A stretch of DNA of 63,791 bases, filler included, from Octopus bimaculoides (taxonomy: Eukaryota), in assembly GCF_001194135.2 (NCBI RefSeq). It is 6 parts of 5 records of this genome, joined end to end, with 100 filler letters (N's around TTAATTAATTAA, not from the genome) between each part and the next. Parts side by side here need not be neighbours in the genome. Positions count along the whole stretch, not along the records: positions 8,436 to 23,675 come from NC_068982.1; positions 23,776 to 35,845 come from NC_068991.1; positions 35,946 to 56,228 come from NC_068987.1; 3 more parts are not named here. One strand, 5' to 3'. Positions 22,425-46,310 of this stretch are shown here, piece by piece (within the stretch, counting starts at the first letter, position 1; every line of letters starts with the position of its first letter). The position numbers were made by a program, and so were the translations under genes. The notes under the pieces were generated by a model. That model ran no database searches, was not told the origin of the DNA, and saw only the letters and a program-made list of their open reading frames with translations.

Positions 22425-22473
22425 GTCTTACAGCTGTTTCTGGGAAGATCCAGTACTTCCCTTCATCGGAGAC
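22425..22473 (-). ncRNA. Minimal type-I hammerhead-ribozyme-like motif (variant core)
   Basis: Minus strand: GTCT-CCGATGA-A-GGGAAG(TACTGGAT)CTTCCC-A-GAAA-CAGCTG-TA-AGAC. All three helices pair, helix III is palindromic, and the cleavage triplet is GUA. Activity untested. Confidence 0.75.
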
Positions 22474-23101
22474 AGAAAAAATAAAGGAATCGATTATTTT
22501 ATCCATAGACGGATAGTTTTAGTATGAAGTGATATAGAGTGTGATGGGTTGAAAAAGAAAGAAAGAGGGAACAGTACTTGGTGTGTAGTTTCATTCCAGT
22601 AGTAAATATCCTTGTAAAGTAATCCTTGTGGGGATAATCCGGAAATAGATGTTGCAGCAATGGTGAATATATGCCATATTGAATCCGATGGTTTTTGCTT
22701 GTTATATATATATATTGCTCCACCTTCACAGGCGTGAAGGTGGAGCAATATAGTGCTTCCAACGTTATCAATGATCCTAGTGCTTCCTCGTTATCAATGG
22801 CATTTCTGAATTCCCATCCATAACTTCTCAGATGACTATTTAGTCCCGTTCCAAATTTGTACGGTTTGAAGCATAGGTAAAAATCTAACAGATGTAACTT
22901 ACTGTGCGCTTCCAACTGGTTAGGAGTGTTTACATTACCACTCTTCCATCACCATGGGACGTTCGGTGCATATTTATGCATTCAGTTGGATAATTAGCTA
23001 GTTGGAGAGTTACATATATAGATACATATATTTTTGTTTGACCAAGAAACCTTTTAAACGATGAGAAAAATCTTGGACAAATAATGTATTTACATGTATA
23101 T

Positions 23102-23425
23102 GGCGGCACGTAGCTTAGTGGTTAGGCTACTCACCTCAGGATTATAAGTTCATGAGTTCAATTCCTGGTGATGGTTGTGTCCTTGAGCAAGACACTGTAT
23201 TTCACATTGCTCCAGTCCACTCAGCTGGCAAAAATGAGTAGTACTTTTATTTCAAGTGGGCCAGCCTTATCACATTGTGTGTCGCGCTGAATCCCCCTAA
23301 GAACTACATTACGAATACACGTGCCTGTGGAGTACTCAGCAACGTGCACGCTATTTTCACGAGCAGGCTTTTCCGGTGATCGGATCAACTGAGACACTTG
23401 TCGTCGAAACCGACAGATTGCCGGT
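23102..23425 (+). mobile_element. SINE family C, different tail
   Basis: A/B-box-like head gtagcttagtggttagg..gagttcaattcc, the same core, and a distinct 3' half. Confidence 0.82.
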
Positions 23426-23589
23426 TTACATGTATTTAGATACAATTATAAATATATACTTTTATTTGTACTAGGCTTACAAAGAATAAGTCCTGGGGTC
23501 GATTTGCTCGACTAAAAGCGGTGCTCCAGCATGGCCACGGTCAAATGACTGAAACAAATAAAAGAATAAAAAAAGAAAAAGAATATTAC

Positions 23590-23666
23590 CAAGAAAATTG
23601 CAGGACAGTGAACCGTGATGTACTGAGTGCATGATAGGTGAACTGCGATATAGCGAGGGATTCCTG
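23590..23666. mobile_element. Right end of the same Tigger-type MITE family
   Basis: gatgtactgagtgcatgataggtgaactgcgatatagcgagggattcctg-TA, closely similar to 18820-18880. Confidence 0.7.
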
Positions 23667-25803
23667 TATATATATNNNNNNNNNNNNNNNNNNNNNNNNN
23701 NNNNNNNNNNNNNNNNNNNTTAATTAATTAANNNNNNNNNNNNNNNNNNNNNNNNNNNNNNNNNNNNNNNNNNNNACACACACACACACACACAGAGTTT
23801 GGTATAGTGCCATCTCGCTCAACTTTTACAAACCAAGAAGAGATTTACCAGGACTAAAAATAAAATCTGTGCTCATCATATTGCCAAAATATATACAGAC
23901 ACTGACAGATTGCAGAAGTCTCTAATTTGAATATATATTAAACTACACTGATTAAACTGCCGTACTAAAAATGTGTTCATCTACCGTATTTTTATCTTTC
24001 GAAAGTTTGCTTTTGTTTCAGCTGTACCATCAAGAATTACTAGAGAAAAGACAAGGCAACAAATTCGAAATAGATGTCAGGGTGTAAAAATGGCTGCGTT
24101 ATTGATTTACAATTCAGCCACGTATTTCCGAATTGTCGGAATTTCTGATCTTAAGTTTTCAGTTATTCGATCAATTGTAATTGACTGCGTATTCCACAGC
24201 CATATTATTTTCAGCGTAATCCGGTGAGAGAAGGCTAGACCTTTACATTACAGGCATAGTTTATCCAATAGCTTTCCGATGAGTTTCCGTCTATCCAATT
24301 TCTTCATAAAGGCTGCAGAAAAGGAAAGTTGCCTGAAATGACCTCGCCATTGCGAAGCTCAGTTCTTGACTTTTCGGCTATATGCACCATAGCACACACA
24401 CACACATTTATGTATGTGTCTGTGTGTTTGTGTGTGAGTGTGTGATATTTTTGTATGTGCGCTCGTGCCTGTATTTATGCATCCTTTACCGATTTATATA
24501 TGTGATTTATAAATATTGCCTAGAAAACCTTAAAAACAAGGAAGTCCCTTGTTTTGCTCCGTGTGAACCCCACCTTTGTCTCTCTCACCCTCAAAAATGG
24601 ATGAAATCATGAATTAGCTTGTTGAAAACCTCTGATGAACGGACGGCGATTTAGAAACCATATAAACATCATATATATAAATAGATAAATAAAATGAATG
24701 AAATATATTATGCTAGCTTGATAATATTACCTGTTAAATAAATGATATGCTTTCTGTATTCATTCTACAATACTAATATCTTATCAAGTAGGCTGTACAG
24801 TTTGTAGAATAACAGTTGATACAATAGTTTCTGATTTAGGTACAAGGCCAGTTATTTTAAAGAGAAGAGATTAGTCGATATCATCGATCTTAGTACTTGA
24901 CTGGTATTTTATTTTATCGATTCAGAAAGGATGAAAGATAAATTTGGCGTAATCGTGTTTCGAACTTAGAATCCAAATAGCTGGGACAAATACTGCAAAG
25001 CATTTTTATCCAACGCTCTGAGCATTTTTCCTGTTCGTTGTCTTAAATCAGTTGATACAATGACACTTGTCCGATACAACTTAGACCAGGGGTTTTTAAG
25101 AGCTTCCGCAAAGAAAATTGCGCTGTTAGCTATTGGATTCTAACTCACGAAGTGTGAGTGGAACGATCAGTCTTTATTCAACCATTGCTGCTCTCCACTG
25201 TCCACGTGAAGGCTTCTACAGTTATATGTTGAAATTTAGTTAGCAGTGTCTTATGAAAAACCTCCTGATCGTATTATTGAATCACAATTTCACTGTACTA
25301 TTGATTTTTTCTGCGTAAAAGATGATGTGTTACGGAATAAAAGAAATCAAACATGAATGTGAGACAGTCGCCATGATTACATAAAACAAGAATAGGAATA
25401 TGACCTTGATATTGAATACAAGGAAACATTAATTCTCAATTAATTATTTAAAAAATTAATTCAAATATTAATATTTTATGGTAACAAAACATTCGGGTAA
25501 ATTTGAATGAATTAGTCATAAAGATTCATTTATGGAAATTAATATAAAGAACTCATACTTTGTTAATATATTTTGGAGTCAGCTGGAAAATTCTATTTTC
25601 GAAATTACTGTTAACGCTGTTTGTTTTTAGTATAAGTATTTCCACATTGTTTTCCTCCATATTTGAGAACGGCACTCACATATGAGCTGAGACTCATATT
25701 TAAGTGTCGGAATAGGCACGAAAAATTGAGTCATTTGAGTAAATAAGAAAATACAGTACGAATACAAATACATACAAGCATATAGATACACGCATAGAGG
25801 TGT

Positions 25804-25872
<69 letters not shown>

Positions 25873-26909
25873 AGGTTCCGGTTATTTCAAAGGCCCACTC
25901 GGTTGTTGCTTAAGTTATGGTGGCATTGTATTAAATGCCGCCACGGTAGAAGATAGCTACTGCAATAGAAAATAAAGAAAAAACAATGTCTTTTACTTCT
26001 GTAACCTTAAGAAGAAGGAACATATTTAATCAGTTGCTTGAGGCTGAAGGGAATCCACAATTCATCGCATATAACACTCATATATAACACCGTATATCAT
26101 ACTTGTTTATGGAAACTGTTAAAGAGTAAAATAAATAAATAAATGACAGTGAAATATGCCATAAGATCAGACTAAGAAATAGATTAAGGTATAATTCCAA
26201 AGCATTGTCATTTTTAAATGCAACAGTTTGATACTTGGCAGAAAGCTCACATTTCACATTGCTTAGCCGAATATTATTTTGTATAAATTTCTTTAGTCAG
26301 CCCGTTCCTTGAAATATTTACCAAGTCTTTGCTAGCAATTAATATTTACGTACTAGTTGCCAGGAATGTGTTTAATATGTAAATTAGTCTATTAAATAGT
26401 GTTACACCGCTAATCTTAGTGGGTATTTAAGCAGAGAAGAAAGAGCGAGGTACTTGTTTGAAATGTCACCTGAGGAGACGCAATCTGCACCGGCGATGCA
26501 AGACAATTGACTGCACAGCATCTCACTTGTGAAGTACGGATGCGGAATGACACCAAACAATTGTAGTGGATTTGAATAAAGAATCTCGTGGATTCCATCT
26601 TCTGCCTCTGTTCTGTTTACCATTTATGTATAGTTCTTTGAAACTAGATATTCATTTCATCACGAATCAAGATTTCCGCTCATATTGTGTGGTAAATATC
26701 CAGTTTGAACTAAAGCATGTATTGAGTACCCTCATTCTCATACATTCGACAAAGATCAACTTTTGCACATACACACAAATATATATGAAATATATGTACA
26801 TTTGTTATACACCTCCACAAGCACCCCCACGCATCCCCATGCATCCCCACGCACCCCGCGCACCTCCATGCACTCCCACACGTATATATGTATATGTTCT
26901 CTGTTTTTA

Positions 26910-28460
26910 ATTATTTAAATCCTTCCTCTGAGGAATAAGCTCGTTTCTCACAATGATACAAAGTTCAGTCGTTGGAATGTAGATAAAAACAATGTCACAT
27001 TCTAAGCTTGAGAAAAGTGTGTTCCACTACAGAGTGTATTTGTAATGTGCGAGTTAACTGGATGATTTCTTTTTCTGGAAAGCCTAACCTATCCAGATTG
27101 TTTCTTAGGCATTCACTCACGAAATCAAGTGCATCAATTATTATTAGTATATATGTAAATTAACAATCTGAATATAGGATATAGAAGCTGGAGGTTTCGA
27201 AACAGATGTCTATAGTTAACTTTTTTGATTCTCAAAGAGATATTCGCATCAGCATGACAGTTGACATCTATTACGGTACATACTTTTTCTTGTCTATCCC
27301 AACTCCGCCTGTTATCCTTACCGTTGACATGTTTTAATAGGAATGTTCCACCAGTATTCCTTGTGTCAATGCTTGTGTATGTATTCAATAACAGGAGGAT
27401 TCTCTATATTTATTCCAAGACGGTCTTTTTTCGAAAGGCATTTATATATTTTTGGTGCGACAACGTCATGTCGCATAGGAAAGTAGGACGTTGATAACAT
27501 TTTTCGGCAGCTGCTAACCAAATGTATGATATCTTCCACAGGCATATGATATAATCTACATTTTTGGCTGTATCTTGGAGCTCCAAGGCCTTCACTGTCT
27601 CTTTTGTTGATTGGACATTTAGTAGCAATCTCCCGTCCTTGGATTGCAAATGCGTAACTTACGAAGTGTGATGTGAAGTAGTGGTCAAGAGTTCAAGAGA
27701 GGCTACACTTCATGTCGATATTACTGTCTCCTTCAAGCCTTTGAGAAACAACCATGCATAGTATTTTTTTTGTATACTGAGCGTTTCACAATCAGGTCTT
27801 CTTTGAAGAATGTTAGTCCGGCTGTTTGGAGGATGTATGGGAGTTCATCAGGAAGAGAGTGGTTCCTGAGAAGTTCGTTGCCGATATGTAGGATATTGTT
27901 CATTTTTCAGCACTAATGTATTTATATTTGCAGCTGTTGTTTAGAAAGCGCTATCTGAAAGAGACTACACGACATTCGAAGGTTGCCTGCGCTGACTTCA
28001 AGCCTCTAACTACTTTGTCTCTTTTTAGGTAGAATCTGTCAATATTACCATTTCTGTGGCGATTTAGAGTTTATCTAGTGGGTTTCAACGTCTCTGGAGT
28101 GGATTTCCTCTGCAGAGCAGTCAAGTATTCCAAATGTTGGAATCAGCACTGGTACTGCAAATATATTGTGCGATATTGTCTTGTAAAAGGAGAGTTCCAA
28201 GTACCATAGTTTTCTAAATCTGGTGTGATGTTCTTGGATCACTCTGTCTTTATTCATAGTACCTTCGTATGATATATTTTCATCAATGCCTTGGTACTTG
28301 TAGTATTCTTTGTGTGCGGTAGGAGAGATAGTGATACCGTTGATGCACAGGTTTTGAATCTGGAGGACTGATTTTCCCCGTTTCTACAATCAAATATGCA
28401 TGTTTCTTTAGGCCAAAATGTTATTTATTCCAGCTGATTTTTCGCTTTGTTTACATTGGA
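26910..28460 (-). mobile_element. Second, older RLE-type (R4/Dong-like) LINE relic, 5'-truncated
   Basis: Minus-strand fragments YYKYQGIDENISYEG, NKDRVIQEHHTRFRKLWYLELS..HNIFAVPVLIPTFGILD, and VIDVNCHADANISLRIK..LFRNLQLLYP. These are RT-thumb and RLE motifs, heavily stopped. Confidence 0.8.
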
Positions 28461-28793
28461 GACAATGTATGTATGTATGTATGTATGTATGTATGTATGT
28501 ATGTATGTATGTATGTATGTATGCATGTATGTAGGTACGTACGTAGTTAAACTGGCTACATGTATCGAATTAATGAGTTAGATGAATATTGGTTTCAAAT
28601 TTTGGTACAAGGCCAGCAATTTCAGGGAGGTGCTCAGCTGGTACTTATTTTATCGAATCCAAAAAGGATGAAAGGCAAATTTGAACTCGGCGGCATTTGA
28701 ACTTAGAACGTAAAATCAAGAAATGCTGCTAAGCATTTTTTTTCTTGCACGGTAACAATTCTGCCAGCTCACTATCTCAGTCAGATGAATATT

Positions 28794-29010
28794 TTTTTCT
28801 ACTCTAGGCACAAGGGCCGAAATGTTTGGGGAGGGAGCCAGTCGATTAGATCGACCCCAGTACGCAACTGGTACTTAATTTATCGACCCCGAAAAGATAA
28901 AAGGCAAAGTCGACCTCGGCAGAATTTGAACTCAGGACGTAAAAACAGACGAAATACCGCTAAGCATTTCACCCAGCGTGTTAACGTTTGTGCCAGCTCG
29001 CCGCCTTCTT
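28794..29010 (-). mobile_element. SINE family A with 15-bp TSD, next to an older copy at ~28588-28772
   Basis: TSD AGTCAGATGAATATT at 28779-28793 and 29011-29025. Confidence 0.92.
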
Positions 29011-30135
29011 AGTCAGATGAATATTGAACGAGTGAATACAGAGTAGTAATTATTGGGTAACGGTTACTGGGCAAGTGTTATTGAAGTAGGGAACCCAATG
29101 AGTATTTCCTTTCTTATGTCAGTCTATTGTTTTGTTTCAAGATAGGATATGTAATTCTATGCAGACCAGTTCGATAAACGAAGTACGAAATTTTCTGAGT
29201 AAAAGAATATGGTTGATCCAATGGTTAGTGGCTACCTCTTTTTAAGACAAGCCGAAGCAATTGAACTTATAGCTCTTGCCGACGATAAAAATGAATATTT
29301 TTTATTTCTATGCATTATATATACTAACAACTAAATTCTTTGTATCTGGCAATAAACTGATAAAATTTATAGACCGTGAAGACAATGCCAAGAAGTTTAG
29401 AATTAAAAGAAAAAGAATGTTTGAGCTAGTAGTTATTTAAAGATTCAGTTTTGTGTGTAAAAAGAATTACCATGAATTCCTCTGGACCATTTCAAATTAC
29501 ATATCTGGAAAAATGATGGAATCGTCAATCAGCTTAAACAAATGGCCAAGTAATCACTGTAACAAACTTCTGATTATATACTTATGTATATGGAGGAAAA
29601 TGATAAAGCGAGTAAAAGAAAAATAGTAAGAGAAAAGGGGAAAAAGAAAAAATGGGAAAGAAAGAGAAAGACTGTAAATTTTGCCGCATTGCAACATTAT
29701 ATAGTAGTGCCGTGCAAGAACACATATACTTACATGCATTGCTTGTTTTCGTCCTCATTACACCACAGAAAACGTCACTGGGTTATCGAATTTCTAGCAA
29801 TCTTGTCGATTTTAGAATCTCTCGAGGTTGATAAAATGGAATTGGTTCTGGTCCACTACTCGTGAAGTAATGGAGTTTTTGAAATCACAAATGTAAGATA
29901 ACAAATTACTTGTCAGTTTTTTTTTCCTTTTCAACTCCTACGCTTCTTCCAGTTGCATAAAGATATCACTTCATCAACCGTTCACAGCTAGAAGAGATCA
30001 CAAGTTCAGTGTTATGGTCAGTGACTAATGGATACTATATGTTGAATATACGTTTACGGATAGTCATATATTGACGCAGCTAGCTACGATTCTCTCCCTT
30101 TTACCTATCTCTTTCTATTCTCACTTTGTCTGCCA

Positions 30136-30167
<32 letters not shown>

Positions 30168-30602
30168 GCCTGCCTGCCTGTCTACTATCTCCCTATCTAC
30201 CTACTATGTATGTATGTATGTATGTATGTATGTATGTATGTATGTATGTATGTATCTTTCTATCTATTTATCCATCCCTCTCGCTGTCGCTCTCCCTCTC
30301 TTTCTGTCATTAAATTTACTCTGCACACATCAGATAAATCTCCTCCAGGACAACTCCTTTCTGTTTCGCCTATGAGAATATAGGCCAAATACAAACGCAC
30401 ATTCGCTCGCTTTAAACAAGCCCATCACACCTGACAATCAATGCACAGCGGATCTTTCCTTCTCAAACTTTTCAATCATTCAGACTCTACAGGGATGTAT
30501 TCTTATCTTTGGAAACACTCTATAGTGTCCTCTCTGAACCTGCCAAGTATCTTCTTATCACTTCCATTTCAAATGTTTCTATTAACAGCTTTCTTCAATA
30601 AT

Positions 30603-30649
<47 letters not shown>

Positions 30650-30675
30650 NNNNNNNNNNTCTCTCTCTCTCTCTC

Positions 30676-30706
<31 letters not shown>

Positions 30707-31387
30707 TACGCGCTGTGTCTTCTCTTTCTTCATTGACCTTTAGCGTGGCTTCAGTTAAGCCAGGTACCTACTCTCCTATATTACTCGGTCGTGGGTAATT
30801 TGGTGGAGCGATTTGGTGTGCATGGGCTCCATGTATTCTACATCACTTGACCCCCATTTTAACCGTGACTGGCATTCGATGTGCCCCAAGATTCGATTTT
30901 GTTCTCTACCACTCGTATTCTTATACAACAGCGATCTGCTTATTGTTGCCTCCAACAATGTTTACTCTTACGCAGATCTTACTTACCTTTTCTTTTTACC
31001 TTAGCCTTTCCTCCCAAAGTATCATTCATATCTAACACAGAGTGCCGACACCAATTTTGCCGTTATTATGACTAAAAACAATTCCCACCAAAATTCCATG
31101 CCTTGGGCTGATGTTAGAAACAATTAAAAGATGTGTTGAATTGGCAAGAAGCATCGGAAAAAATTCCTCGCAGCGTTCTTTCAGGTCTTTATGTTCTCAG
31201 TTCAAATTCTACTCAGGCCAATTTTGTCTTTATTCCCCCGGGTTCGATAAATATGATAACAGTCAAGTGCCGGGGTCGATTTAATCGCTAACACTTTCTC
31301 CTCAGATATCAAACTTTGTGTTTGTGCTTATGTCATCATCACCCTCCTCCTCCTCCTCCTCCTCNNNNNNNNNNNNNNNNNNNNNNN

Positions 31388-31429
<42 letters not shown>

Positions 31430-31809
31430 CATTTATTTCCTATCTCTCGTAGTAAAAGTGGCCACAATATTATTAAAACAAAACCCCACCTCAAATTTGG
31501 AGTCAAAACAAACATATATATTAAAGACATAAAGGAAATATTCTAAATACCTGTGGAATATATTTCAGAAAGAGAAACAAATAATACGTTTATGAATTTA
31601 TTTTGCAAGATACCTGATGTGAAATCATGTGCTGAAACAGATATTGTATTTCGGGACTCGTTTATTATTGTTCTTATTTTATCATAAAATAAAATAAGAA
31701 CAATAATAAACAATTGAAAAACGAATATGTAGTGCGTGTGCTTATTTGGCAAGAAAAAGAAATGACCGTCCCGAAATATAGCAATGAACAAATAATACTT
31801 TTTTGATAG

Positions 31810-32049
31810 AAACTAACATCGTTTGGAGGAAAATACGACATAGATGACGATGACAACAACAACAGCTTTGATAACACATACATATCCTTTTTACCAATCA
31901 AAGAGATGAATGGAGAGTTCGAATTGAAAAGAAGGAAAGCGCTTCTAGCTTTCCTTGATTTGCTGGAGTTACCTGAATTATCTGAGGAAGAAAAAGTTTT
32001 CTGGTTGAACTGTGTGACAATGGATGGCTATCAATTTTCAGTCTCTTAA
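31810..32049 (+). CDS. Orphan 79-codon ORF, candidate terminal exon (KLTSFGGKYDIDDDDNNN...ELSEEEKVFWLNCVTMDGYQFSVS*)
   Basis: Open 240 nt in very AT-rich DNA directly after acttttttgatAG, with protein-like composition. A phase-compatible upstream exon candidate lies at 31569-31645. No family recognised. Confidence 0.35.
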   Translation, partial: KLTSFGGKYDIDDDDNNNSFDNTYISFLPIKEMNGEFELKRRKALLAFLDLLELPELSEEEKVFWLNCVTMDGYQFSVS

Positions 32050-32510
32050 CAAAAAAAAAGAAAAAACGAGAAAAAGAAGATAACCGTACACCCCAGAAGA
32101 GGTGCGACGCAGTGCGACTGAACTCGAAACCATGTGGTTAGGAAGGAAGCTTCTTAGTACACAGCCTATTCCTTTATCCTCATTTGTCTTATTCTTTCTT
32201 ACCGTCTTTCTTCTAATTTGTAGTATTCCCCTGTAAAGTGAAATCAAATTAAATTAAATTTGGGAAAATTACAGTATTGTGGACGGGAATTGGCAGTTAA
32301 GAAATATGGAAACAATTAGTGCGAAGTTAGTGCATGTGTGTGTGTGCGCGTGTGTATGTGTGTGTGCATGCATGTGGGCATGTGTGTGCCTGTGTATGTG
32401 CATGTGTGTGTACATGTTTGCACGTGTGTGTGTACATGTGTGTACATGTGTTTATATGTATGCACGTGTGTGCATACGTGAGAGTTGGTTTTTACATAGG
32501 TAAAACAGAG

Positions 32511-32541
<31 letters not shown>

Positions 32542-32933: not shown

Positions 32934-33006
<73 letters not shown>

Positions 33007-33409
33007 GAGCGCGAGAGAGATACAAAAATACAGGTTGATTTGAAAATTCCTTTCGCGTTTTCATGCTATCATGTAATGTACCGAGTGTGTATATGTTTTA
33101 AAGAAACAATGAATGTTATTTTAGATAGTATAGAATTAAAATCTCCATCATTAAGCTCATTATGTGATCAAATTCTTTTTTCAGCTGCTGAAATCGAATC
33201 CCTCAAGAACGACTTTCATAAATCTCTGCTGAGTTGTTATTCTTGATCATGTTTCAGAAAGCGAATTTCTGACTTGTGCAGTTTTGGTCCATATTTGGAG
33301 TAAAGTTTTCTTTACATGGGAAAGTTACTGTAAATTAATGTTTTCATTTTCTCTTCCACATTCGAAATTTAAACCAAATACAAGCCGAGAAAAATAAAAA
33401 ATCATTAAT

Positions 33410-35450
33410 GATCTCGAGGATGATCAAAATATAGCTGTTAAAGAAACTGATAAATGTAGTACTATAGTCATTGAGGACTCGGAATAAACACTACACTAAC
33501 TCTTCTTCGTGACAGCACTTATATAAAAAAAGATTAACAATTACCAACAATCCAAAATAATGAAGGAGTTCTCTACTCTCACCCAACTGTTCCAAAAAGA
33601 TTTGACGGAGAAGAAAAATACTTAACAAGACTGCAAAACCACCAACTTTTACGGACTTGCGAAAATCCAGAAAAGTGATGTCATAAATGAAGCTTGTAGT
33701 AGATCAACCTCATGTGCTACATCCCATAGACCTCAAATTGAAACCAATTATGGCAAGCTCGTCCTGTGAAACAGACTCAGTAACTTTACTGACGTACTTC
33801 TAAAACCAATTCTTAAACATATACCGAACTTCATATGAGCAAAACCAGCATGGATACTCTTTTTGTGTCATTCTATGTAATAAATTCTGGCTGGTAAAAT
33901 TTCTAAATGGCATATCTGAACGAATTGGGAAAGGATTTATCATTGAAGTATTAAATAACCTTTTCAGCTTCAAAGACAAGTATCTATGACTGCGGTGGGG
34001 ATGAAGGCAGCTTTGCTAACCTTGACCTGGCATACTTGGAAGACCAAATATACGAATACACCAGACTGAAATTTGGTGATAACTTCTATAAGTACTTACT
34101 TGCCAACTGAATACACTACCTGGATGATTCTTTCATTTTGTGGTTGCATAATCTGGACCAACTCTTGGAGTTTAAAGACTTAATAACATAAAGCACTGTA
34201 TCCAATTCACGATGGAATAAAGCCAAAAGAGCAACCATTTTTTAACATCTTAATCACAAGAACAGATATTATCATTGAAACCGACATCTACTTTAAACCA
34301 ACAAACTCAAAACAATATCTTCTATTTTTTCCTTCCATCCATAGCATAGAAAAATCTATAATACCTTTTAATCTGGCAAGTAGAATTTGCACAGTCATAT
34401 CCAATCCCGAAAACCGGAAAACAAAAACGACCCCAAGAACTTAAGAATGTATTGATTTCAAAATTTGGCACAAGGTCACAATGTTGGGGAAGGGGTAGGT
34501 TGATTACATCGACCCCCAACCTTCAAATGGTACTTATTTCATTCACTCCGAAAAGAATGAAGGCAAAGTCGAGCTCGGCGGAATTTGAACTCAGAATATA
34601 AAGACATACGAAATGCCGCTTAGCATTTTACCAGGCATGTAACGATTCTGTCAGCTCGCAGAAAATATATTACTTGAAAATATATTACTTAATAAAAATA
34701 TATTACTTGAAAGAAAATACCCTGTCAGTTTAATCAATAAAGGAATAGAACGTGTAAAATCGATAGGCATCCAAAAATTACGAGAAACAAGAAAACACCC
34801 TGATACACTTAACACATTACCTTATGTATCAAGACACAATCCATGGAATATGGATGGATATCCGTTTTGATGGACGACCTACGAATGAAAAAGCACTGGT
34901 AAAACAAAATTGCTAAATGTAAAAGAAACCCAACTTTCTAAAAAGGCTACTTACTAACATCAAATTACCCATCAAAAACAAGCATTCAGCTGACCGAGAC
35001 AAGTGACTTCTTAAGGGAATCAGCCAAGCGGAAAGCTGGATGACCGTCAGACAAAAACAGGTTACCAAGACTTGTAACTGACAAATGACATATGTAGAAA
35101 AGCAGTCAACCAAATAAAGAAATAAGAAAACCAGTCAACCAGAGCACTGCATCTCGACTGGTCAAAAACACGCGATCAATACAGTCGATAAACAAATGAG
35201 GTTATGGGGAAGTCAACTAAGCAGAACGCTGGACTACTGCCAAAATTAAAATATTTGACGAGAACATATGAAAAACAAGAGATATATTGAAGCCGGAATA
35301 ACATGAGGAACGTCATCAAATTAATAACCAATGAGAACTTAAATCTATAACTTAAAAATCTATATCTACAAAGCGATTTCAGCTTAAAACATTCCAAGCT
35401 CACACCGTCAAAGCCCGCGACGAAGAATCCTCCTTCATGCACTACGACAG
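33410..35450 (+). mobile_element. Degenerate Penelope-like retroelement (RT, possible GIY-YIG remnant)
   Basis: Frameshifted motifs in PLE order: IAVKETDKCSTIVIED (ADKG motif), NFYGLAKIQKS (FYGLPKIHK), LKPIMAS, YLDDSFILW (~34117), IQFTME, ETDIYFKPTNSKQYL, LERKYPVSLI, LPYVSRHNP. Interrupted by a SINE at ~34447-34659. The 3' boundary is approximate. Confidence 0.88.
34447..34659 (-). mobile_element. SINE family A inserted into the Penelope-like element
   Basis: Full head, core and tail interrupting the PLE reading frame between the thumb-region motifs. Confidence 0.85.
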
Positions 35451-35801: not shown

Positions 35802-35845
<44 letters not shown>

Positions 35846-35959
35846 NNNNNNNNNNNNNNNNNNNNNNNNNNNNNNNNNNNNNNNNNNNNTTAATTAATTA
35901 ANNNNNNNNNNNNNNNNNNNNNNNNNNNNNNNNNNNNNNNNNNNNATATATATCAACAC

Positions 35960-36238
35960 GTGAAGGTGCATACTTCAGTGGTTACAGCGTCGAGCTTACA
36001 ATCGTGGGGTTGTGAGTTCGAATCCTGGGCCTGGCTGCGTGTTGTGTTTTTGAGCACGACACTTTATTTCACGTTTCTCCAGTTCACTCAGCTGTAGAAA
36101 TGAGTTGCGACGTCACAGGGGCCAAGCTGTATCGGCTTTTGCCTTTCCCTTGGATAACACTACCCGGACTTGTGCCTGGGATGGTAACTTTCTAGGTGCA
36201 ATCCCATGGTCAGTCATGACCTAAAGCGGGGTCTCAGC
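35960..36238 (+). mobile_element. SINE family C sharing its tail with the 4962 copy, with an internal deletion
   Basis: ..cccttggataacac|..gacttgtgcc..ggtaactttctagg.. lacks the ~65-nt block present at ~5150-5215. Confidence 0.8.
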
Positions 36239-36794
36239 ATATCAACACAATTTAACGAATTTGATAATTTAAGAAATATATTCCTTTTATTTCCTGCATT
36301 TCTCTCACCAACTGTCGTCTGTCTGTATGTATGTTTGTCTATGTGTCCGTCTCTCGCTGTCACACATTCAGACCCTCTTATTTACACATAGAGAAACAAC
36401 ATTATTCATATATGCCTGCCGCGCACGCGTGCGTGTAGTGTGCGCGAGTGTATGTGTGCGTGTAAGCGTCTGTGTATATGTTTGTGTGTGCTTATATTTC
36501 TGTGTGCGCTATACGTTTATGCATGTATTGTGTATATGTGCATGATCTCATTCTCTTTATACGAGATACGAGAGTGTAGTTTTGTGAAGCGACTCAAGAC
36601 TCAAAGATTAGATATTCTTAATCAAGTTTTCTCTGTGATTGTGTGTTCGTCTGCAACATAAGGTGAAATCAGAAACTGGTGGCAAGAGAAGAGGATCCGC
36701 ATGCAAGGGGGATAACTGCTGAAGTCTAGGGAGGACAACTTCACACAATTTGTATACGTTCACCTTCTCTTCTTCTCTTTGAGGCACACACACA

Positions 36795-36881
<87 letters not shown>

Positions 36882-37389
36882 GCTGACACTTACACACAAC
36901 ATGGATATACTGACTCATACTCTAAAACATATACATACACACTGGTATCCACTGAGCAGTGTGGCAGGGTGGTTAACTTGTACGATTCACAGTGACTATT
37001 TCACAGTGTCAGGTTTCAATCCATCTACTCGGAAAATTGGGTATCTGCCATCTACCATCTACCATCTATTAGAGCTTCGAAACGACAGAGACGAAATGTG
37101 AGCAATTAGATAGATTAGGTAGGCATGGCTGTGTGGTAAAACGTTTCTTCCCAACCCCATGGTTCAGTTTTCAGTCCTGCTTCGTGACAGCCTGGTAAAA
37201 GTAGTTTTCTACTACAGCTCCGGGCCGATTAAAACATTGTGAGTGAATTGGCTAATCGAAAAGTGAAATAAACCTATCGTATATGTACGTGTTTGTGTGT
37301 GTGTGTATGTATCTGTCTGTCTGTCAATCTATCTCTCTGTCTGTCTGTCGGCCTGTCTCCGTCTCTCTGACTTTCTGTCTATCAGCCTG

Positions 37390-37451
<62 letters not shown>

Positions 37452-37623
37452 GATCGATCGATCGATCGATCTATCTCGGAGGTTAAAAATAAGTTTATAT
37501 GATCGTCATTATAATATAAGTCTGTGTTTCTCCTTATTTCTCTTACATATGCTCTGTAGCTCATAACTAACATGATCACTCAGTACAGAAGTTATTTGAT
37601 TATACACAAAGGCGTGACTCCGT

Positions 37624-38032
37624 ATAGGCGCAGGCGTGGCTATATGGTAAGAAGTTTGCTTCTCAGCAACATGGTTCCAGGCTCACTCCCACTGCGTAGC
37701 ATCTCGGGTAAGTGTCTTCTACCATTATCTCTGGCCGACTAAAGCTTTGCGTGTGGATTTGGTAGACAAAAACTGAAAGAAATCCATCGTGTATGTGTTT
37801 GTATTGTGTGCATCTTTGTGACTGTGTTTGTTCCCCACCACCGCTTCACAACCGGTGTTATGTGTTTTCGTCCACATAAATTAGCGGCTCGGCAAAATCC
37901 ACTCGCAAGGCTTTGCTAGGATCGAAGCTATAGCAGAAGACACTTGCCTAAGGTCTCACGCAGTGAGACTGAATTCGGAACCATATGGTTGGAATGCAAG
38001 CTTCTTACCACACAGCCACACCTGCGCCTATG
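37624..38032. mobile_element. Two SINE family B copies in inverted (tail-to-tail) arrangement
   Basis: A + copy starts taggcgcaggcgtggct at ~37624; a - copy ends ..agccacacctgcgccta at ~38030. Confidence 0.85.
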
Positions 38033-38705
38033 CATATTTATTTGTAGTTTTTGTTGTCTATGGATAAACATTCAATTTTAACCTCGCTTCGAAAAATAAC
38101 CAAACTGGTTGCTCAACAATTTTTCTTATCTCTGAGAATAGAAAAGCGAAAAGGTAGAATCTGTCAGTTTGTATTCATCTTTCACCTGACTGTCATCAAG
38201 AAAGAATCCTCAACTGCCCACGGAGTGCTTAGCGGGCTTTAGGCATTCTAAGGACTCATCTAAATCCCCAAATCTAATTTTCTCAACGGTGCCATCATCG
38301 GTAGCATGGTTAATTCATTGTACAGTACACAGTAGTTTGGACTAATTTTTGCACCACAAAAACTAAAATTGTGTTTCTTACAATAAAAGATATATCTCTT
38401 GTGATTATACAGCTATATGTGCGTATGTGTGTGCGTGTGTGCGCGTGCGTGTGTGTGTGTTATATATATATATATATATCCTTAAACATACAGAATATTT
38501 ATCTATCTATCTATATTGTTGGCACTATGAGAATAAAGAAACTTCGAGAGAAGGCGAAATAATTCTTTCTAGTTTAAAAACTATAAACCCAAATACTGTT
38601 TTTTGCCAAGCGTTTAGACGCTGCTATCCATATCTTTATCTGCTACGTGTTTCCCCGTCCTGACGCAGGCTCATATGTACATATACAATTACATGTATAA
38701 AAATA

Positions 38706-40040
38706 CACTACGTCCCACATTATTAGGCAAATCAGCCTTCTTTCAATAAATAAATGTATATTCGTTGAAAACCAGTTGTTTTCCCACTGACTGCACACAT
38801 TCTCTTAAAATAATTCGGATCTGTGCAGATGCCGACAAGTAGCTGCCATTTTTGTGACTGGGCAACATTTTCACCGTCACAAATTATTAGGCAAGTATAA
38901 TAAAAATGATAATTATGCCAGAACAAACATTTATTTAATTCAACAGTAAAGGTTTAACAAAAAATTATTCATAAAGAACTTAATGGTAAGCATGATTATA
39001 CGTTCGAATGAAAATAATCATGGGATTATGATGTCATACAGCTCCTAATGTTTGATGCCTGATCTTCCACATGCAATAACCTTCCTTACGCATTCATCCA
39101 TTGAATTTGTTATGGTGATGATATTCTCGTGACATGTTTTGGGCAACATCTACAATAGCATCCCAGAGGGCAACTTTACTTGAAAACTGCCGTCCATCTT
39201 GGTAAACGCATCTCTTCAGGACACCCCACTGGTTCTCGATCGGGTTTAAGTCAGGGAAACAAGGTAGTCACTCCATCAAACGACTGTCAGAGGAGCCTAT
39301 TTGCCGAAGGTATTTCTTAGAATTCTTCGCTGGCTGAGACGAGGCATTATCTTGCACGAAGGCCAGCTTTCTCTTGAATGAAAGTTTTTGCTTTTTGAAC
39401 GACGTTTGGAAATTGTCCTTTAAGAAGGTAACATATGTTTTCAATGTAATTTTAATGCCATCTGGGACTTTCCATAGCTCGACCATTATACCACGAACGA
39501 CTCCAGCCCAACACATGACTCCACCTCCCCTCTGTTGGCGTCCCAAACGATGAAAACAGTTCCCGCTGATTGATAGCCAGCCTTTACTTCAGCCATTAGG
39601 TCCGTCATGGGTAGCACGGCATTCGTCAGTGAACAGAACTGTCAAAAAATCTATCTTCATGTATTCTTCTGCCCGTTTCAGTCTCTTCTGCTTATGAACA
39701 ACCTTCAGAGGGGGGCCTTGTAACAGGTTTAACATTCCTGGCTACCTGCTTCAAGAGGCGACACCTGGTAGTTTTCGATACCTCTTCCCTGCCACAACGT
39801 TTGGAGACTTCTGTACTTGTCAGACATAGGTTCTGCACAACTTCCCTTTTCACACGTGACAAAGTACGATTCGAAGCAAACCTTGACTTGCTTTATCTGC
39901 CCTCGAACTGACAGAAAGAGGAGACTGTAAAAATTTCTTTACTGATCGGTGATCCCTTACCAGTATTTTGGATATTTCTCTGGTTGTTTTTCCTTTTCCA
40001 AGCTCTGACACTACCGTAGACTTCTCATTTATGTTTGTAT
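38706..40040 (-). mobile_element. Tc1-family DNA transposon relic (DD34E), one terminus preserved
   Basis: Minus-strand motifs ..GKGKTTREISKIL..DHRSVKKF, VLFTDECRATHDGPNG, GVMCWAG, FVQDNAS, PDLNPIEN. Terminus TA|CACTACGTCCCACATTATTAGGCAA at 38704-38730. The 5' end is lost in (CATA)n and the gap. Confidence 0.9.
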
Positions 40041-40793
40041 ACATACATACATACATACANNNNNNNNNNNNNNNNNNNNNNNNNNNNNNNNNNNNNNNNN
40101 NNNNNNNNNNNNNNNNNNNNNNNNNNNNNNNNNNNNNNNNNNNNNNNNNNNNNNNNNNNNNNNNNNNNNNNNNNNNNNNNNNNNNNNNNNNNNNNNNNNN
40201 NNNNNNNNNNNNNNNNNNNNNNNNNNNNNNNNNNNNNNNNNNNNNNNNNNNNNNNNNNNNNNNNNNNNNNNNNNNNNNNNNNNNNNNNNNNNNNNNNNNN
40301 NNNNNNNNNNNNNNNNNNNNNNNNNNNNNNNNNNNNNNNNNNNNNNNNNNNNNNNNNNNNNNNNNNNNNNNNNNNNNNNNNNNNNNNNNNNNNNNNNNNN
40401 NNNNNNNNNNNNNNNNNNNNNNNNNNNNNNNNNNNNNNNNNNNNNNNNNNNNNNNNNNNNNNNNNNNNNNNNNNNNNNNNNNNNNNNNNNNNNNNNNNNN
40501 NNNNNNNNNNNNNNNNNNNNNNNNNNNNNNNNNNNNNNNNNNNNNNNNNNNNNNNNNNNNNNNNNNNNNNNNNNNNNNNNNNNNNNNNNNNNNNNNNNNN
40601 NNNNNNNNNNNNNNNNNNNNNNNNNNNNNNNNNNNNNNNNNNNNNNNNNNNNNNNNNNNNNNNNNNNNNNNNNNNNNNNNNNNNNNNNNNNNNNNNNNNN
40701 NNNNNNNNNNNNNNNNNNNNTATATATGCATGTATGTATATACGTGTGCATGCATGTATGTATGTATTCATGTCTATACATATGGATGTATGA

Positions 40794-40825
<32 letters not shown>

Positions 40826-41560
40826 TTGTATGTATGTATGTATGTATGTAAGTACGTATGTGTATATAGATATATGTACGTATGAGTGTATAAGAAAATG
40901 CATGTACAAATGTATATGTTTGCTTGTGCGACTGTAAATTTGTGTGTGTTCGTGTGCTTGTAGTTATGTGTTTGTGTCTGCGTATGTGTGCGTCTATGTG
41001 TGAGAGACATTGAGTGTGCGCGCGAGAGTGAGTGTGTGCTTTTGCGTTTTAGCATTTTTTTTCTTTTACAGCGTTTTTTTTCACTCAGTATCTCGTGTTC
41101 GTATTTTGAATTTAATTTCCACTCGAGAGTTTGTTGTTCATGCATGTCTGTTCATCATAAAATGTAGTTAATACAGTGTGATCTTATCATTCATCTTAAA
41201 CTTCATGATAGTATGTCAACGTCAGATTCTACGATAAAGTTTACTGATGTTTACTTCTAGTTCTTTCTCTTTTCTATCTAGTGGGGTTACTTTCATTGCA
41301 ACTTTGACTTATCGCGGGCAATTTCAGGTATGCTCTGGGTGTTATTTTCGAGTATGGTCAATATGACTCTTGGATGTCCATATAAAATTTTGGGGGTTCC
41401 ACGCTAGCGAAATAGTAAATTGGGGTTCTGCAGTAATATTTTACCGATCCATGAAAAGTTTTTATTTAAGTGTATGTATTACAAGTAACAGCTAATTTCT
41501 TTCTCTAGAATTTTACATAGTTCAACCTATACAAGTGGATGTGTAAATAATTAGATAGGA

Positions 41561-41777
41561 TTAAGGCAGCGAGCTGGCAGAAATGTTAGCGCGCCGGGCG
41601 AAATGCTTCGCGGTATTTCGTCTGTCCTAACGTTCTGAGTTCAAATTCCGCCGAGATCGACTTTGCCTTTCATCCTCTCGGGGTCGATAAATTAAGTACC
41701 AGTTGCGTACTGGGGTCGATCTAATCGACTGCCCCCCCACAAAAGAAATTGCGGGCCTTGTGCCTAGAGTAGCAAAG
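41561..41777 (+). mobile_element. Young SINE family A with 15-bp TSD
   Basis: TSD AATAATTAGATAGGA at 41546-41560 and 41778-41792; near-consensus sequence. Confidence 0.93.
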
Positions 41778-42516
41778 AATAATTAGATAGGAATACTGAA
41801 AGAAGTATCTGTAAAATTAGTTCTTAAACATCAAGTGACTATGGGGTTGACTACAATAAAATAGATATTGAAAAGATGCCTTGGTGAAGAATGGTTGTGG
41901 ACCACTGTTTTGGAGTGATAGCAAATAGATAAATATAGATGTATATATACAACCGGCAGTTTTCTTATCAAATTGCTCGCACTATAAACTGTGTGGCAGT
42001 TTCACTAGACTGCAGAAAAGCTTTCGGTTGTGTTTATCACTTTTGACTGTTACAACCACTCTAGTTATCATAAGTGCACGTTACCTTAGAATCTGAAAGA
42101 GAAATGTTAAAAAAATCCTGGTCAGCAATCCTCATACTATAACTGAAAGCAGAACAATTGTGTCGATGTTATAAATCTTTCAAACGGAAAATTTGTAGGA
42201 GACAACCTATCTATGCTTCTGTTTATTTTGGCAATAAATTCACTGTCTTTTCCTTCACAATAAATGCAACGGTTCCGTGTTACGTTTTGCTACAGCAAGA
42301 GACATTAATGTAAATCATAACTTATTTGTAGATCATATGAAGATCTTCACTGGAAGTACGGAACAATGCTGAGGGGAAACAGCTGGATTTAATAATAATA
42401 TATAATATTTTAAACTTGTAAATGGACGCAGAAAATATACTCATCCTTCTCTAAAATCAAACGTTTACATAAATGATCTCTCTCTACAAACCGTCCATCT
42501 GTTTATTATAAATAGC

Positions 42517-42572
<56 letters not shown>

Positions 42573-44562
42573 TAGAGAGAGAGAGAGAAGAATATTTTCT
42601 TTATAACAAGAGACGAGAATGCATGTAAGACAAAAGAAAGAACGCGTAAATTACACGATTCGTTTACTCATGACAGCTTCGTGGGAACCTTGCTAAACCA
42701 AAGCATGTCGAGCACTATAAATGCAACCATTGCTGAAATTGTGGGCCATATTCATTGTATCTACCAGGACTTATCAACATTTATGTCGACAACCAATCAC
42801 AGAAGAGCTGCTACTAAGTGAGTCTGAGACCTAGCCCCCTATTCTCGTTCCTTTGTTTGTTTTTTTTTATCACTGTTCGACTTTTCAAATCTCATAATCG
42901 ATAGATTCAGGAAAAAAAATCAAGAATCAAAAGTGAACCTCAAGCAATAATGGTGTGTAATACTAGATGTACAATCACTATTCGTGTGTCCTGAGAGTAT
43001 TGGCAAATCTTTATCTGTGATAAAGGAAGGTGATCTAAACTAGGGATTAGTGCTTGGGTGTACTAGAACTGCAGGAGATTTAAGAGAAATAAGTATCATT
43101 AATTGATTAATTTCGTCTGATATTCTACCCCCATCTAAATAGTAAGTAGTTACATGGAATCCTAGTAAGAAGGATTTTGAGGTTTCTTGAATCCAGACTG
43201 AATTAATGAATACCGTACATCATTTTAGAATGCTTGTTTTCCAGGATTGCCATGCTTTTTTTATGCATGGAATTAGCGAACAGTTTAGTATGCGCAAAGG
43301 AGAAAAAAGATCATCTCGTTTCATTTTTTTGACCCGACAATTTCTTATGAATTAGTTACCCATGCATTTGAGAAACAAAGCATTAAAAGTCTGCTATTTA
43401 CCAATAAAAAATTCATGACCAATTGGCTGGTAGTAGCGACGGCAATCATTAGATGGCACACTATCTCTCCAGTGTTAATGAGTCTTTTTTCCCCAATTCG
43501 ATTATGTATTTCTAATCTATTAACCTCATCAATTGAATTTTCATTTGCGATATTTTACGTTCATACTGAATTTTCATCAGTTTGGTCATCGGCCGGCATA
43601 AGGTGTCTTATCCTTGGTTATTTAAATTCTTAAATAACCTGAAAATGAAGTGTTAACTATAGGAGAGTAAATAAAGTTTCAGAATTAGAATCCGATCCGG
43701 TACTTTATAGGCATTAAGGAATAAGGCTTCTCATATCGATCAGTGATTAAAGAGTAGAATAGATATTAAAAGAAGAAGTAATGACTTTGTCATAATTATT
43801 TTTTTTTAATAATGGAGCAATTAACCCCATATAAACAAGAGGTTAATTGTTATGAAAAATTACCAGCTTTTATGATATAATCAATATTAAGCTGGAAGAG
43901 AAGGAGAAGTAGCTTTTGAAACTCGTAGACCTTCCCAGTCTTTTAAATAAAATTCTTAGGATGAAACACTAAATCTGAAACAAATCATCGATAAAAGGTT
44001 TGTTAGAATTAAACAAGAGAAGAGTAAAAGAAGGGATGTAAAAGTAAAAATATTTGAAGTATGTTGTTTCATTCAAGGCCACGTATAATCGACCTATTAT
44101 ATAAGAAAAGAAAGATTTCAGGCGTGATCACTACCTCCCCTACCTCCCCTACCTCATTGTAAGAGTATGTCTATGGCTACCTTATCCCATTCATTCTTCC
44201 TTTTCGTATGATGGTAGGATGTAATTTGAGGGAAATTTACCTGGTATTTATACTAGATCAAGTGACTATGGGAGGTTCTGCCGATGCTCATCTTTAAATT
44301 ATGTATGTGACTGCCGTAATGATTGGGATGACGATTTATCTAATTGTTGCCAGGTATTAGTATCTATAGAACGACATAGCAATATAACTAGAGATTCTTT
44401 TTATACCTAAGTGGTATACATATGTGTTTATAAATATATGTATATATCCATCAACGAAAGACGAACGAAAGCGTTAATATGAAAATGAAAATATAATAAA
44501 AAAGTTTTTCCAAAATTCTAACGACTTTTTCAATATTCAATTCTTTACATCACACCTAACAT

Positions 44563-44596
<34 letters not shown>

Positions 44597-44782
44597 ATAT
44601 ATATATATGCAAAATATATTATTTAAAACAGTTTGATTCGGTACTATGCGACTTAAAGTTTCGCAGGCCTCTCATAGAAGCCCGTCTCTTTGAGGCTAAA
44701 GAGGCCAAACTGTTTTAAATAATACACGTAACTCCTACTAAATGTGTAGAGTGCCATTTTGTCTTTCATTTTTCAATCGTTC

Positions 44783-44818
<36 letters not shown>

Positions 44819-44964
44819 GTATATATCATATATATAATTTTTAATACAGAGCAAATAAAGCAGGAGAAAAAATATTTGCGAAAATATTGACTCTATTATT
44901 ATCTAGTGTAACAATTAAAAATCATAATAACAGAATCAATACCATAGTCGATTAGCCCCTCCCC

Positions 44965-45272
44965 CCAACAAAACATGATCTCTCTACTGCATGCTTCTTC
45001 ACGGCCAAATCTATGTTGCTTCCTCGCGAGTTGGAAGCAACAACAATTCATTATTTTGACACCAACATAAAATTACATAATGGATATTATTTACCCTGAG
45101 GTGCTTCAACATTGTCAGATTTTCAGATTGAAATTCTGTTATCATGACAATCTGGATATTTTAAAAATAAAATATAGATATATTGAAATAATTATGAGAA
45201 TATATCTTTATGTTTATTTTTTACTAATCTGAATAAGAACAGCAGTAACCCGGGAAACGCCAGGTCATTCAG
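44965..45272 (+). mobile_element. Helitron 3' end (helicase C-terminus plus terminal hairpin)
   Basis: DLSTACF(fs)HGQIYVASSRVGS..(fs)..MDIIYPEVLQ, followed by cccgggaaacgccaggtcattcagcttg (45249-45276), a degenerate Helitron hairpin and CTAG terminus. Confidence 0.8.
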
Positions 45273-45650
45273 CTTGTATATAATCTCCATATGTAGCTGT
45301 CTGTCATCGTTAATTTCTATGTATGTCCAGAATGTGCATGCAGGACAATTAAACGAACAGATAGCGTTTGATTCGTAAAAACAAGTAGAATTTCTTTCGA
45401 AAAATAAATCTTCATAGCGTGCATAATAATATCTATATTATTGTTATCTATAGTATGTGTATTAACAAATTGTAGTATATCACGTGATTAATTATTACAA
45501 TTTTATGATTATCATTATAGATACTGACGTGACTGTGTGGCGAGAGGTTTGCTTCCCAACCACATCGTTTCGGGTTCGGCCACACTGCAACACAATGCTT
45601 GTGAGTGGATTTAGTAGAGAGAAACTGAAAGAAATACGTCGTATATATAA

Positions 45651-46310
45651 TATATAAACATAATTAAGGGATCAGCAAACATTTGCTTCACCACATACCG
45701 AAGTTCAGAAATAGCAGCTAAAAAAGCTGAGACTCCAACAGATAGCATTACTTGTAACTCACAAATGCAAAAATAAGAAGAAAAAACAAATGAAATCTAA
45801 CCATTCGAAGTTAATCATAGACGCGTTTCTGGATTATGAGCGATAATACTCAATTTCCTTCATCGGTATGATATTCTAGTAGTAAATTCGACTATGCTAG
45901 CAAACTGTGCATGCATGAACGAGTGAACATTCATGCATCGGCACAACCTGAAAGCACAACCGAACCTACATCGACCAGCCAATCCACTATTTGCTCCTCA
46001 AGAAATTACCATGTGCGTCACAAGCAATACCGCAGAAAATTTGCGGTTTACTATCAGAGAGTGAATAATTATTACAATTAAAAGGGTAAAGGTTTATCAA
46101 TTTATTAATTTATTAATAAATCAACAATTAATAATTTTTACCAAGCCCTTCGGTATGTAAACACCATTATCGGCGGAGAACTTATTTAAAAGTTCTTATA
46201 CATTTATAAACATAATTAAGGGATCAGCAAACATTTGCTTCACCACATACCGAAGTTCAGAAATAGCAGCTAAAAAAGCTGAGACTCCAACAGATAGCAT
46301 TACTTGTAAC
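45651..46310. repeat. ~105-bp near-perfect direct repeats (45651-45758 and 46205-46309) around a ~445-bp unique spacer
   Basis: tataaacataattaagggatcagcaaacatttgcttcaccacataccgaagttcagaaatagcagctaaaaaagctgagactccaacagatagcattacttgtaac occurs twice. Confidence 0.9.
45816..45870 (-). ncRNA. Minimal type-I hammerhead-ribozyme-like motif (variant core)
   Basis: Minus strand: CATA-CCGATGA-A-GGAAATTGAG(TATTATCG)CTCATAATCC-A-GAAA-CGCG-TC-TATG. Palindromic helix III, GUC triplet, helix II partly eroded. Confidence 0.72.

What the first reader, a model, noticed from the sequence alone, without database searches (positions are those of the whole stretch)
22425..45870. Two sequence-unrelated minimal hammerhead motifs share the same non-canonical core (CCGAUGA plus A/A closing helix II)
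Seen: on the minus strand, 22425-22473 reads GTCT-CCGATGA-A-GGGAAG..CTTCCC-A-GAAA-CAGCTG-TA-AGAC and 45816-45870 reads CATA-CCGATGA-A-GGAAATTGAG..CTCATAATCC-A-GAAA-CGCG-TC-TATG. Every helix differs in sequence but keeps pairing, which amounts to covariation. Both have a 4-bp helix I, a palindromic helix III and the same two departures from the canonical core: C instead of U at position 4, and unpaired A/A where G10.1-C11.1 is expected. Known: Penelope-like elements and non-LTR retrozymes carry minimal hammerheads with palindromic helix III that are thought to cleave as dimers. Inference: the same variant in two unrelated copies, creating a CpG against the usual direction of decay, suggests a lineage-specific hammerhead variant rather than random inactivation.
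Basis: partly seen in the sequence, partly recalled or inferred. Interest (0 to 1): 0.82.

Follow-up and report, generated by a model that had tools for sequence, protein, structure and literature searches.

The report
Retroelement hammerheads with altered catalytic core
Two unrelated repeats in this animal genome carry the small self-cutting RNA motif typical of Penelope-like jumping genes, both with C where the motif normally needs U; for the one repeat family that could be tested the C form dominates the DNA, so this is likely an inherited variant that the standard search pattern misses, though whether it still cuts is untested.

Summary
Both motifs are real and beyond chance (2 seen, 0.01 expected per shuffled window). 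They are minimal type I hammerheads with a palindromic helix III, the kind known from Penelope-like elements (PLEs).

Only one of the two 'departures' is new. G10.1-C11.1 is present. The extra base on each side of helix II is already in the published PLE descriptor. C4 is not: that descriptor hard-codes CUGANGA.

C4 looks inherited, not random. In DNA contigs of motif 2's multi-copy family only 17% of depth shows U4. A probable third copy in the window reads CCAAUGA, a CpG-decay product of CCGAUGA. The same core lies about 70 nt behind a PLE reading frame in a metagenome contig.

Against a fixed variant: 72-77% of RNA reads over the core carry U4, mostly with U3. Motif 1's family could not be tested. 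The metagenome hit was selected for C4. No PLE protein was tied to either motif. Cleavage is untested; published U4C mutants are slow.

Verdict: new variant of a known kind, moderately interesting, cheap to test.

The parts
22425..22473 (-). Motif 1: minimal type I hammerhead, core CCGAUGA, extra A on both sides of a 6-bp helix II, palindromic helix III (A-CAGCUG-U); predicted cut between 22429 and 22428
22415..22507 (-). Possible distal extension of helix I of motif 1: 8 perfect pairs between 22507-22500 and 22422-22415 (predicted only)
22226..22700 (-). Host stretch of motif 1: about 475 nt between two (TA)n tracts; no protein match; family size unknown
45814..45872 (-). Motif 2: minimal type I hammerhead, same core, 6-bp helix I, interrupted helix II, palindromic helix III (A-CGCG-U); predicted cut between 45820 and 45819
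45646..46315 (-). Host element of motif 2: 551-nt unit plus a 119-nt terminal duplication (45646-45763 = 46197-46315, 97%), between TA and CA microsatellites; member of a multi-copy, transcribed repeat family
53402..53441 (+). Probable decayed third motif: CCAAUGA (a CpG-decay product of CCGAUGA), extra A on both sides of a damaged helix II, palindrome CCGG, helix I broken; (TA)n about 130 nt downstream

Best explanation
The two motifs are minimal type I hammerhead folds that likely mark the terminal repeats of two unrelated Penelope-like-element-derived repeat families, and the C at core position 4 was likely inherited from their source elements rather than acquired by decay of these copies. 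In a tandem or more-than-unit transcript two copies would pair through their palindromic helix III and cut after position 17, probably slowly and probably helped by the element's protein, as shown for other PLE hammerheads. Shown: the sequences, the multi-copy family of motif 2, the low U4 share in its DNA contigs, and the same core behind a PLE reading frame elsewhere. Inferred: PLE origin of these two hosts, inheritance of C4 for motif 1, dimer folding in cells, and any cleavage. The isolated genomic copies here are probably inert.
For: Beyond chance. Core letters are identical while all helices differ. Motif 2 family: 4118 DNA contigs laid; U4 has depth 11,872 of 70,472 (17%), so C4 is at most 83%; no DNA contig lacks the extra A at 45859-45860 (0 of 82,769 depth); the majority allele at 45841 (69% of depth) turns a U-G pair of helix II into U-A. 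Third copy with CCAAUGA: 0.002 expected per shuffled window. L152 has the same core about 70 nt behind, and on the same strand as, a PLE RT/GIY-YIG frame (66% over 142 aa to P0022, E 3e-56). Motif 1 dimer -32.9 kcal/mol against -19.2 for two monomers. A natural U4C viroid variant is slow in vitro but keeps infectivity (PMC3088659). A PLE hammerhead cuts only with the element's protein (PMC11167929).
Against: RNA reads over the core are mostly U4: 87 of 113 and 59 of 82, with U3 in 80 of 119 and 58 of 86; run X1 gives 71% U4. So the transcribed subfamily is not the C4 one, unless cut C4 RNAs lose this part. No pile-up of read ends anywhere in the stretch. All CUGA-region single mutants had low activity in a pairwise scan (PMC9901934). 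No PLE protein match for either host. L152 was picked by a C4 pattern, and a structured match also arose in 1 of 120 prokaryote loci. A relative of L152 (P0006) reads Leu, not Pro, at the core, which suggests U4. Motif 2's cofold does not give the double hammerhead. Motif 1's family was not tested.
Confidence: 0.5

Rival explanations
1. C4 is inherited but catalytically dead or nearly so. A source element with a crippled hammerhead amplified anyway because cleavage is dispensable for insertion, and the fold is a relic or serves as a protein-binding landmark.
For: Hammerhead-dead mutants of an anole PLE insert normally in vitro (PMC11167929). Naiad PLEs lack canonical hammerheads yet amplify (PMC8557442). 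CUGA mutants are poorly active. The transcribed subfamily carries U4. No read ends at the cut site.
Against: The same C4 in two or three families whose helices have turned over completely implies the core letter was kept or chosen repeatedly. The U4-bearing RNA subfamily mostly has U3 too, so it is not canonical either. RNA-seq also showed no ends at the cut site of a hammerhead that does cut in vitro.
Confidence: 0.35
2. Both copies descend from canonical CUGA elements and each picked up U4C independently by decay or in a small side branch; the shared C is coincidence.
For: All 56 motifs in PMC4209133 Fig. S3 lack a CCGA core, and all 34 rows of PMC8557442 File S2 start with ctga. T>C changes are common among copies. 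The lay favours contigs similar to the window's own copy. Motif 1 is a single copy.
Against: U4 makes up only 17% of DNA contig depth at an 80% likeness cut-off, at which one base cannot decide what is laid. Both intact motifs in the window have C4 and the third has CCAA; the window holds no intact CUGA motif. The published lists were made with a CUGANGA descriptor and could not show C4.
Confidence: 0.12
3. The motifs are chance matches and not hammerhead-derived.
For: No Rfam hammerhead match at any E-value up to 10. Monomer folding is no more stable than shuffles (z -0.39 and -0.18).
Against: 0 of 300 shuffles gave two motifs. The identical core sits where PLE hammerheads sit in L152. Weak monomer folding is expected for dimer-type hammerheads.
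Confidence: 0.03

Closest known systems
Minimal hammerheads (min-HHR) of metazoan Penelope-like elements (Cervera and De la Pena 2014, PMC4209133)
   Same: Type I topology, 4-6 bp helix I, long helix II closed by G10.1-C11.1, extra base between 9 and 10.1, optional extra base before G12 (in the Fig. S7 descriptor; one of 56 Fig. S3 rows, Adineta vaga 1, has A on both sides), palindromic helix III, dispersed single copies.
   Different: C at position 4: 0 hits for CCGANGA-type strings in the supplement, whose descriptor requires CUGANGA. The only core variant in that paper is U3-A8.
Hammerheads of Hydra-clade and Chlamys PLEs (Craig et al. 2021, PMC8557442, File S2)
   Same: Mismatched bases on both sides of helix II (U/U in 14 of 34 rows, C/A in 2); (TA)n insertion preference; one octopus family listed.
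   Different: All 34 rows have U4; most have a small stem-loop helix III; none has A/A.
Natural U4C core variant of a viroid hammerhead (as summarised in Perreault et al. 2011, PMC3088659; the primary paper was not held)
   Same: Same substitution; slower in vitro, still enough in vivo.
   Different: A rare variant of a plant RNA replicon with full tertiary contacts, not the DNA-majority state of an animal repeat family.
Non-LTR retrozymes (PMC7229834; bioRxiv 10.64898/2026.07.22.740005)
   Same: Small non-coding units with a type I hammerhead, tandem or more-than-unit copies, proposed PLE derivatives; motif 2's host is a 1.2-mer of a 551-nt unit.
   Different: Described monomers are about 170-400 nt, mostly with canonical hammerheads; circular RNA was not shown here.

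Membership tests
Type I hammerhead ribozyme | Three helices around the core in type I order | tested here: met
   Helices I and II pair in both motifs; helix III is a palindrome
Type I hammerhead ribozyme | Canonical core CUGANGA / GAAA / UH | tested here: not met
   All positions canonical except U4, which is C in both; no Rfam match
Type I hammerhead ribozyme | Self-cleavage after position 17 | not testable with these tools
   No read-end pile-up in two RNA-seq runs, which is uninformative for such ends
PLE minimal hammerhead | Extra base between 9 and 10.1, with G10.1-C11.1 kept | tested here: met
   consensus
PLE minimal hammerhead | Palindromic helix III able to form a dimer | tested here: met
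   Duplexes of -11.1 and -7.5 kcal/mol, no hairpin; the full double hammerhead is the minimum-energy fold for motif 1 only
PLE minimal hammerhead | Located in the pseudo-LTR next to a PLE RT/GIY-YIG frame | tested here: inconclusive
   No protein match beside motifs 1 or 2; met for the same core in L152; terminal duplication and microsatellite flanks fit
PLE minimal hammerhead | Multi-copy family with structure-keeping changes | tested here: inconclusive
   Motif 2 is multi-copy and one U-G to U-A change was seen, but only 40 of 269 variant rows were shown; motif 1 not tested
Non-LTR retrozyme | Tandem non-coding units each with a hammerhead | tested here: inconclusive
   A 1.2-mer with one hammerhead in the window; joints from 46200 back to 45653 in RNA and in 12 DNA contigs follow from the terminal duplication
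Non-LTR retrozyme | Abundant circular RNA monomers | not testable with these tools
   The back-joint also stands in DNA, so it does not show circles

The most novel reading that the evidence does not exclude
A branch of Penelope-like elements, present in this genome in at least three unrelated families and in at least one other animal host, uses an active hammerhead with a CCGAUGA core, where the A/A pair on top of helix II or the element's protein offsets U4C. CUGANGA descriptors miss it, so many PLEs scored as hammerhead-less may carry it, and C4 copies are scarce in RNA reads because they cut.
Probability: 0.3. Interest if true: 0.68.

Novelty: new variant of a known kind. Interest (0 to 1): 0.47.

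Why it matters
U4 is treated as nearly invariant, and the PLE surveys read here hard-code it. A repeat family that amplified with C4 means either that the core tolerates it in the dimer or protein-assisted setting, or that PLEs amplify with a dead ribozyme. Both bear on the open question of what PLE hammerheads are for. One family holds C3-C4, C3-U4 and U3-U4 subfamilies with very different shares in DNA and RNA, which is a ready-made natural comparison. The kind of motif itself has been known since 2014.

Tried and rejected
No whole genome is held, so the genome-wide descriptor search could not be run.

Rfam: no hammerhead match in the whole window or in either motif region.

Pattern scans of viral contigs: no structured match among the 85 of 86 loci my script parsed, 0 of 7 and 0 of 40 loci. 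Prokaryote genomes: 1 of 120 loci structured, inside what reads as coding DNA, taken as chance.

PLE protein next to motifs 1 or 2: nothing in Pfam for 12 frames, homolog search, Atlas, tblastn and HMMs from PLE proteins. The two hits of the representative search are tandem-repeat proteins with summed weak scores, rejected. A resemblance of the frame after motif 2 to PLE N-termini (IPKGL-like) is a lead only; 7 variant sites gave no clear coding signal.

Related PLE loci in viral and prokaryote collections: none. Homologs of the window's own decayed PLE: none. L152's record is not held for further search.

Literature: Lunse et al. (RNA Biol, short stem III hammerheads) and Ambros and Flores 1998 are not held; I saw only their citations. 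Searches for a CCGA-core PLE hammerhead found none (supplements). Earlier scan notes hold no CCGATGA or octopus hammerhead finding.
Full report
OBSERVATION. Both motifs are in the sequence as described. A descriptor with helix I of at least 4 Watson-Crick pairs, C-N-G-A-N-G-A, optional extra bases, GAAA, a palindrome and UH finds these two and nothing else in the window. Dinucleotide shuffles give 0.01 per window and never two (0 of 300); with positions 3 and 8 relaxed, 0.08 and again 0 of 300. The flanks are unrelated. Helix I of motif 2 is 6 bp and its helix II has a 3x3 internal loop. G10.1-C11.1 is present in both; the two As are extra bases outside that pair. Rfam has no match. The window looks like an octopus-type genome; that label is recalled from its repeats and comes from no call.

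SURROUNDINGS. Motif 1 lies in about 475 nt between two (TA)n tracts. Motif 2 lies in a 551-nt unit with a 119-nt terminal duplication between microsatellites. Both end 170-200 nt downstream of the ribozyme, as PLE insertions do when reverse transcription starts downstream of the hammerhead (PMC11167929). No PLE protein could be matched next to either motif, so their PLE origin is inferred from architecture and from L152 below.

FAMILY TEST, MOTIF 2 ONLY. One lay was allowed and the two motifs are too far apart to share it. On 45640-46200 at 80% likeness, DNA run X2 gave 4118 contigs of mixed likeness, so this is a multi-copy family. At position 4, U has summed depth 11,872 of 70,472 (17%, 10 contigs); at position 3, U has 7,064 of 70,472 (10%). 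C4 is therefore at most 83% and clearly not a rare mutation. Summed contig depth is not a copy number. No DNA contig lacks the first extra A (0 of 82,769); the second extra A has no row. The majority allele at 45841 changes a U-G pair of helix II to U-A. RNA gives the opposite picture: U4 in 87 of 113 and 59 of 82 reads, U3 in 80 of 119 and 58 of 86, and 71% and 65% of depth in run X1. These reads share many other differences, including a changed 5' strand of helix I, so they come from a distinct, homogeneous subfamily. Whether it has A8 is unknown, because only 40 of 269 variant rows were shown. Reads lie on both strands about equally and no end pile-up was listed. Either the U4 subfamily is the transcribed one, or C4 RNAs cut and lose this part; these data cannot separate the two.

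FURTHER EXAMPLES. (1) At 53402-53441 (+) the window holds CCAAUGA with the same two extra As, GG opening helix II and a CCGG palindrome, with helix I broken. A descriptor taken from motifs 1 and 2 with one mismatch expects 0.002 per shuffle (2 of 1000); a looser one expects 0.11 (32 of 300). CCAA is what CpG decay makes of CCGA, which points to C4 in a third family. That rate equals the prokaryote control (1 of 120), so structure alone proves nothing. Context does: in L152 the motif lies about 70 nt behind, and on the strand of, a decayed frame 66% identical over 142 aa to PLE proteins with RT and GIY-YIG domains, beside an inverted truncated copy. The C-C linker suggests the Neptune clade (recalled label). 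L152 may be a single mutated copy picked by my pattern: a relative, P0006, reads through its 3' end with Leu where C4 would give Pro, which suggests U4.

MECHANISM. The palindromes cannot form hairpins but give duplexes of -11.1 and -7.5 kcal/mol. For motif 1 the cofolded pair is exactly the double hammerhead (-32.9 against -19.2); for motif 2 it is not. Monomers fold no better than shuffles. PLE minimal hammerheads cut weakly as dimers (PMC4209133), and one needs its protein and is dispensable for insertion in vitro. U4C slows cleavage but was enough for viroid infectivity (PMC3088659), and CUGA-region mutants had low activity in a pairwise scan (PMC9901934). I put slow, assisted cleavage of an inherited C4 core at 0.5, an inherited but dead core at 0.35, independent decay at 0.12 and chance at 0.03.

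COMPARISON WITH WHAT IS KNOWN. The extra base between 9 and 10.1 is in the published consensus, and the descriptor names a possible extra N10 and extra N11. One of 56 rows has A on both sides; 14 of 34 rows in PMC8557442 File S2 have U/U and 2 have C/A. So A/A is within known variation. C4 is absent from both lists, but their main descriptors require CUGANGA; PMC8557442 also tried relaxed cores without extra finds, and CYGANGA descriptors exist for viral RNA. The CpG argument is weak: CpG o/e is 0.72.

WHAT I READ. PMC4209133: text parts 1-2 of 4, supplement parts 1-2 of 3 and a search. PMC8557442: passages, supplement part 2 and a search. PMC11167929: parts 1-2 of 4. PMC3088659: section 8 and passages. 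bioRxiv 2026.07.22.740005: part 1 of 5. PMC6765202, PMC13481778, PMC9901934, PMC7229834, PMC6155905: passages. Not seen: Lunse et al., whose title says it describes many PLE hammerhead variants; it or its supplement may already list C4. Ambros and Flores 1998 and the Terminon paper were also not seen. My searches found no report of a C4 PLE hammerhead, within an open-access library.

VERDICT. A correct catch of a known kind of motif with one unreported core letter, dominant in the DNA of the one family tested. New variant of a known kind; interest 0.47.

Noticed in passing
window 33377-35430 (+): A heavily decayed PLE: weak tblastn matches to PLE RT and thumb regions (best E 4e-4). Its frame ends in an LKT motif followed at 35417 by a badly worn hammerhead-like string that also has C at position 4 and A before GAAA; too decayed to count.
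   Followed up: partly
window 45811-45924 and 45998-46045, RNA runs X21 and X22: A homogeneous transcribed subfamily of motif 2's repeat has U3-U4 and a changed helix I strand, about 10% of DNA depth but about two thirds of RNA reads. Position 8 is unresolved.
   Followed up: partly
window 46077-46315 and 45659-45772: The 240-nt part of motif 2's unit downstream of the ribozyme has 10-20 times the contig depth of the ribozyme itself. It holds a roughly 60-codon minus-strand frame without homologs.
   Followed up: partly
window 22711-22752: Perfect 19-bp inverted repeat with a 4-nt loop next to the (TA)n tract that bounds motif 1's host stretch.
   Followed up: no
window 7985-8383, 19852-20145, 39268-39588, 48867-49382: Fragments that read like a non-LTR RT, a restriction-like endonuclease, a Tc1-type transposase and a Gypsy-type RNase H (labels recalled from motifs, not searched).
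   Followed up: no
P0006, residues 224-234: Predicted proteins that read through a PLE stop codon expose the hammerhead core as Leu (U4) or Pro (C4), a way to mine protein databases for this variant.
   Followed up: partly
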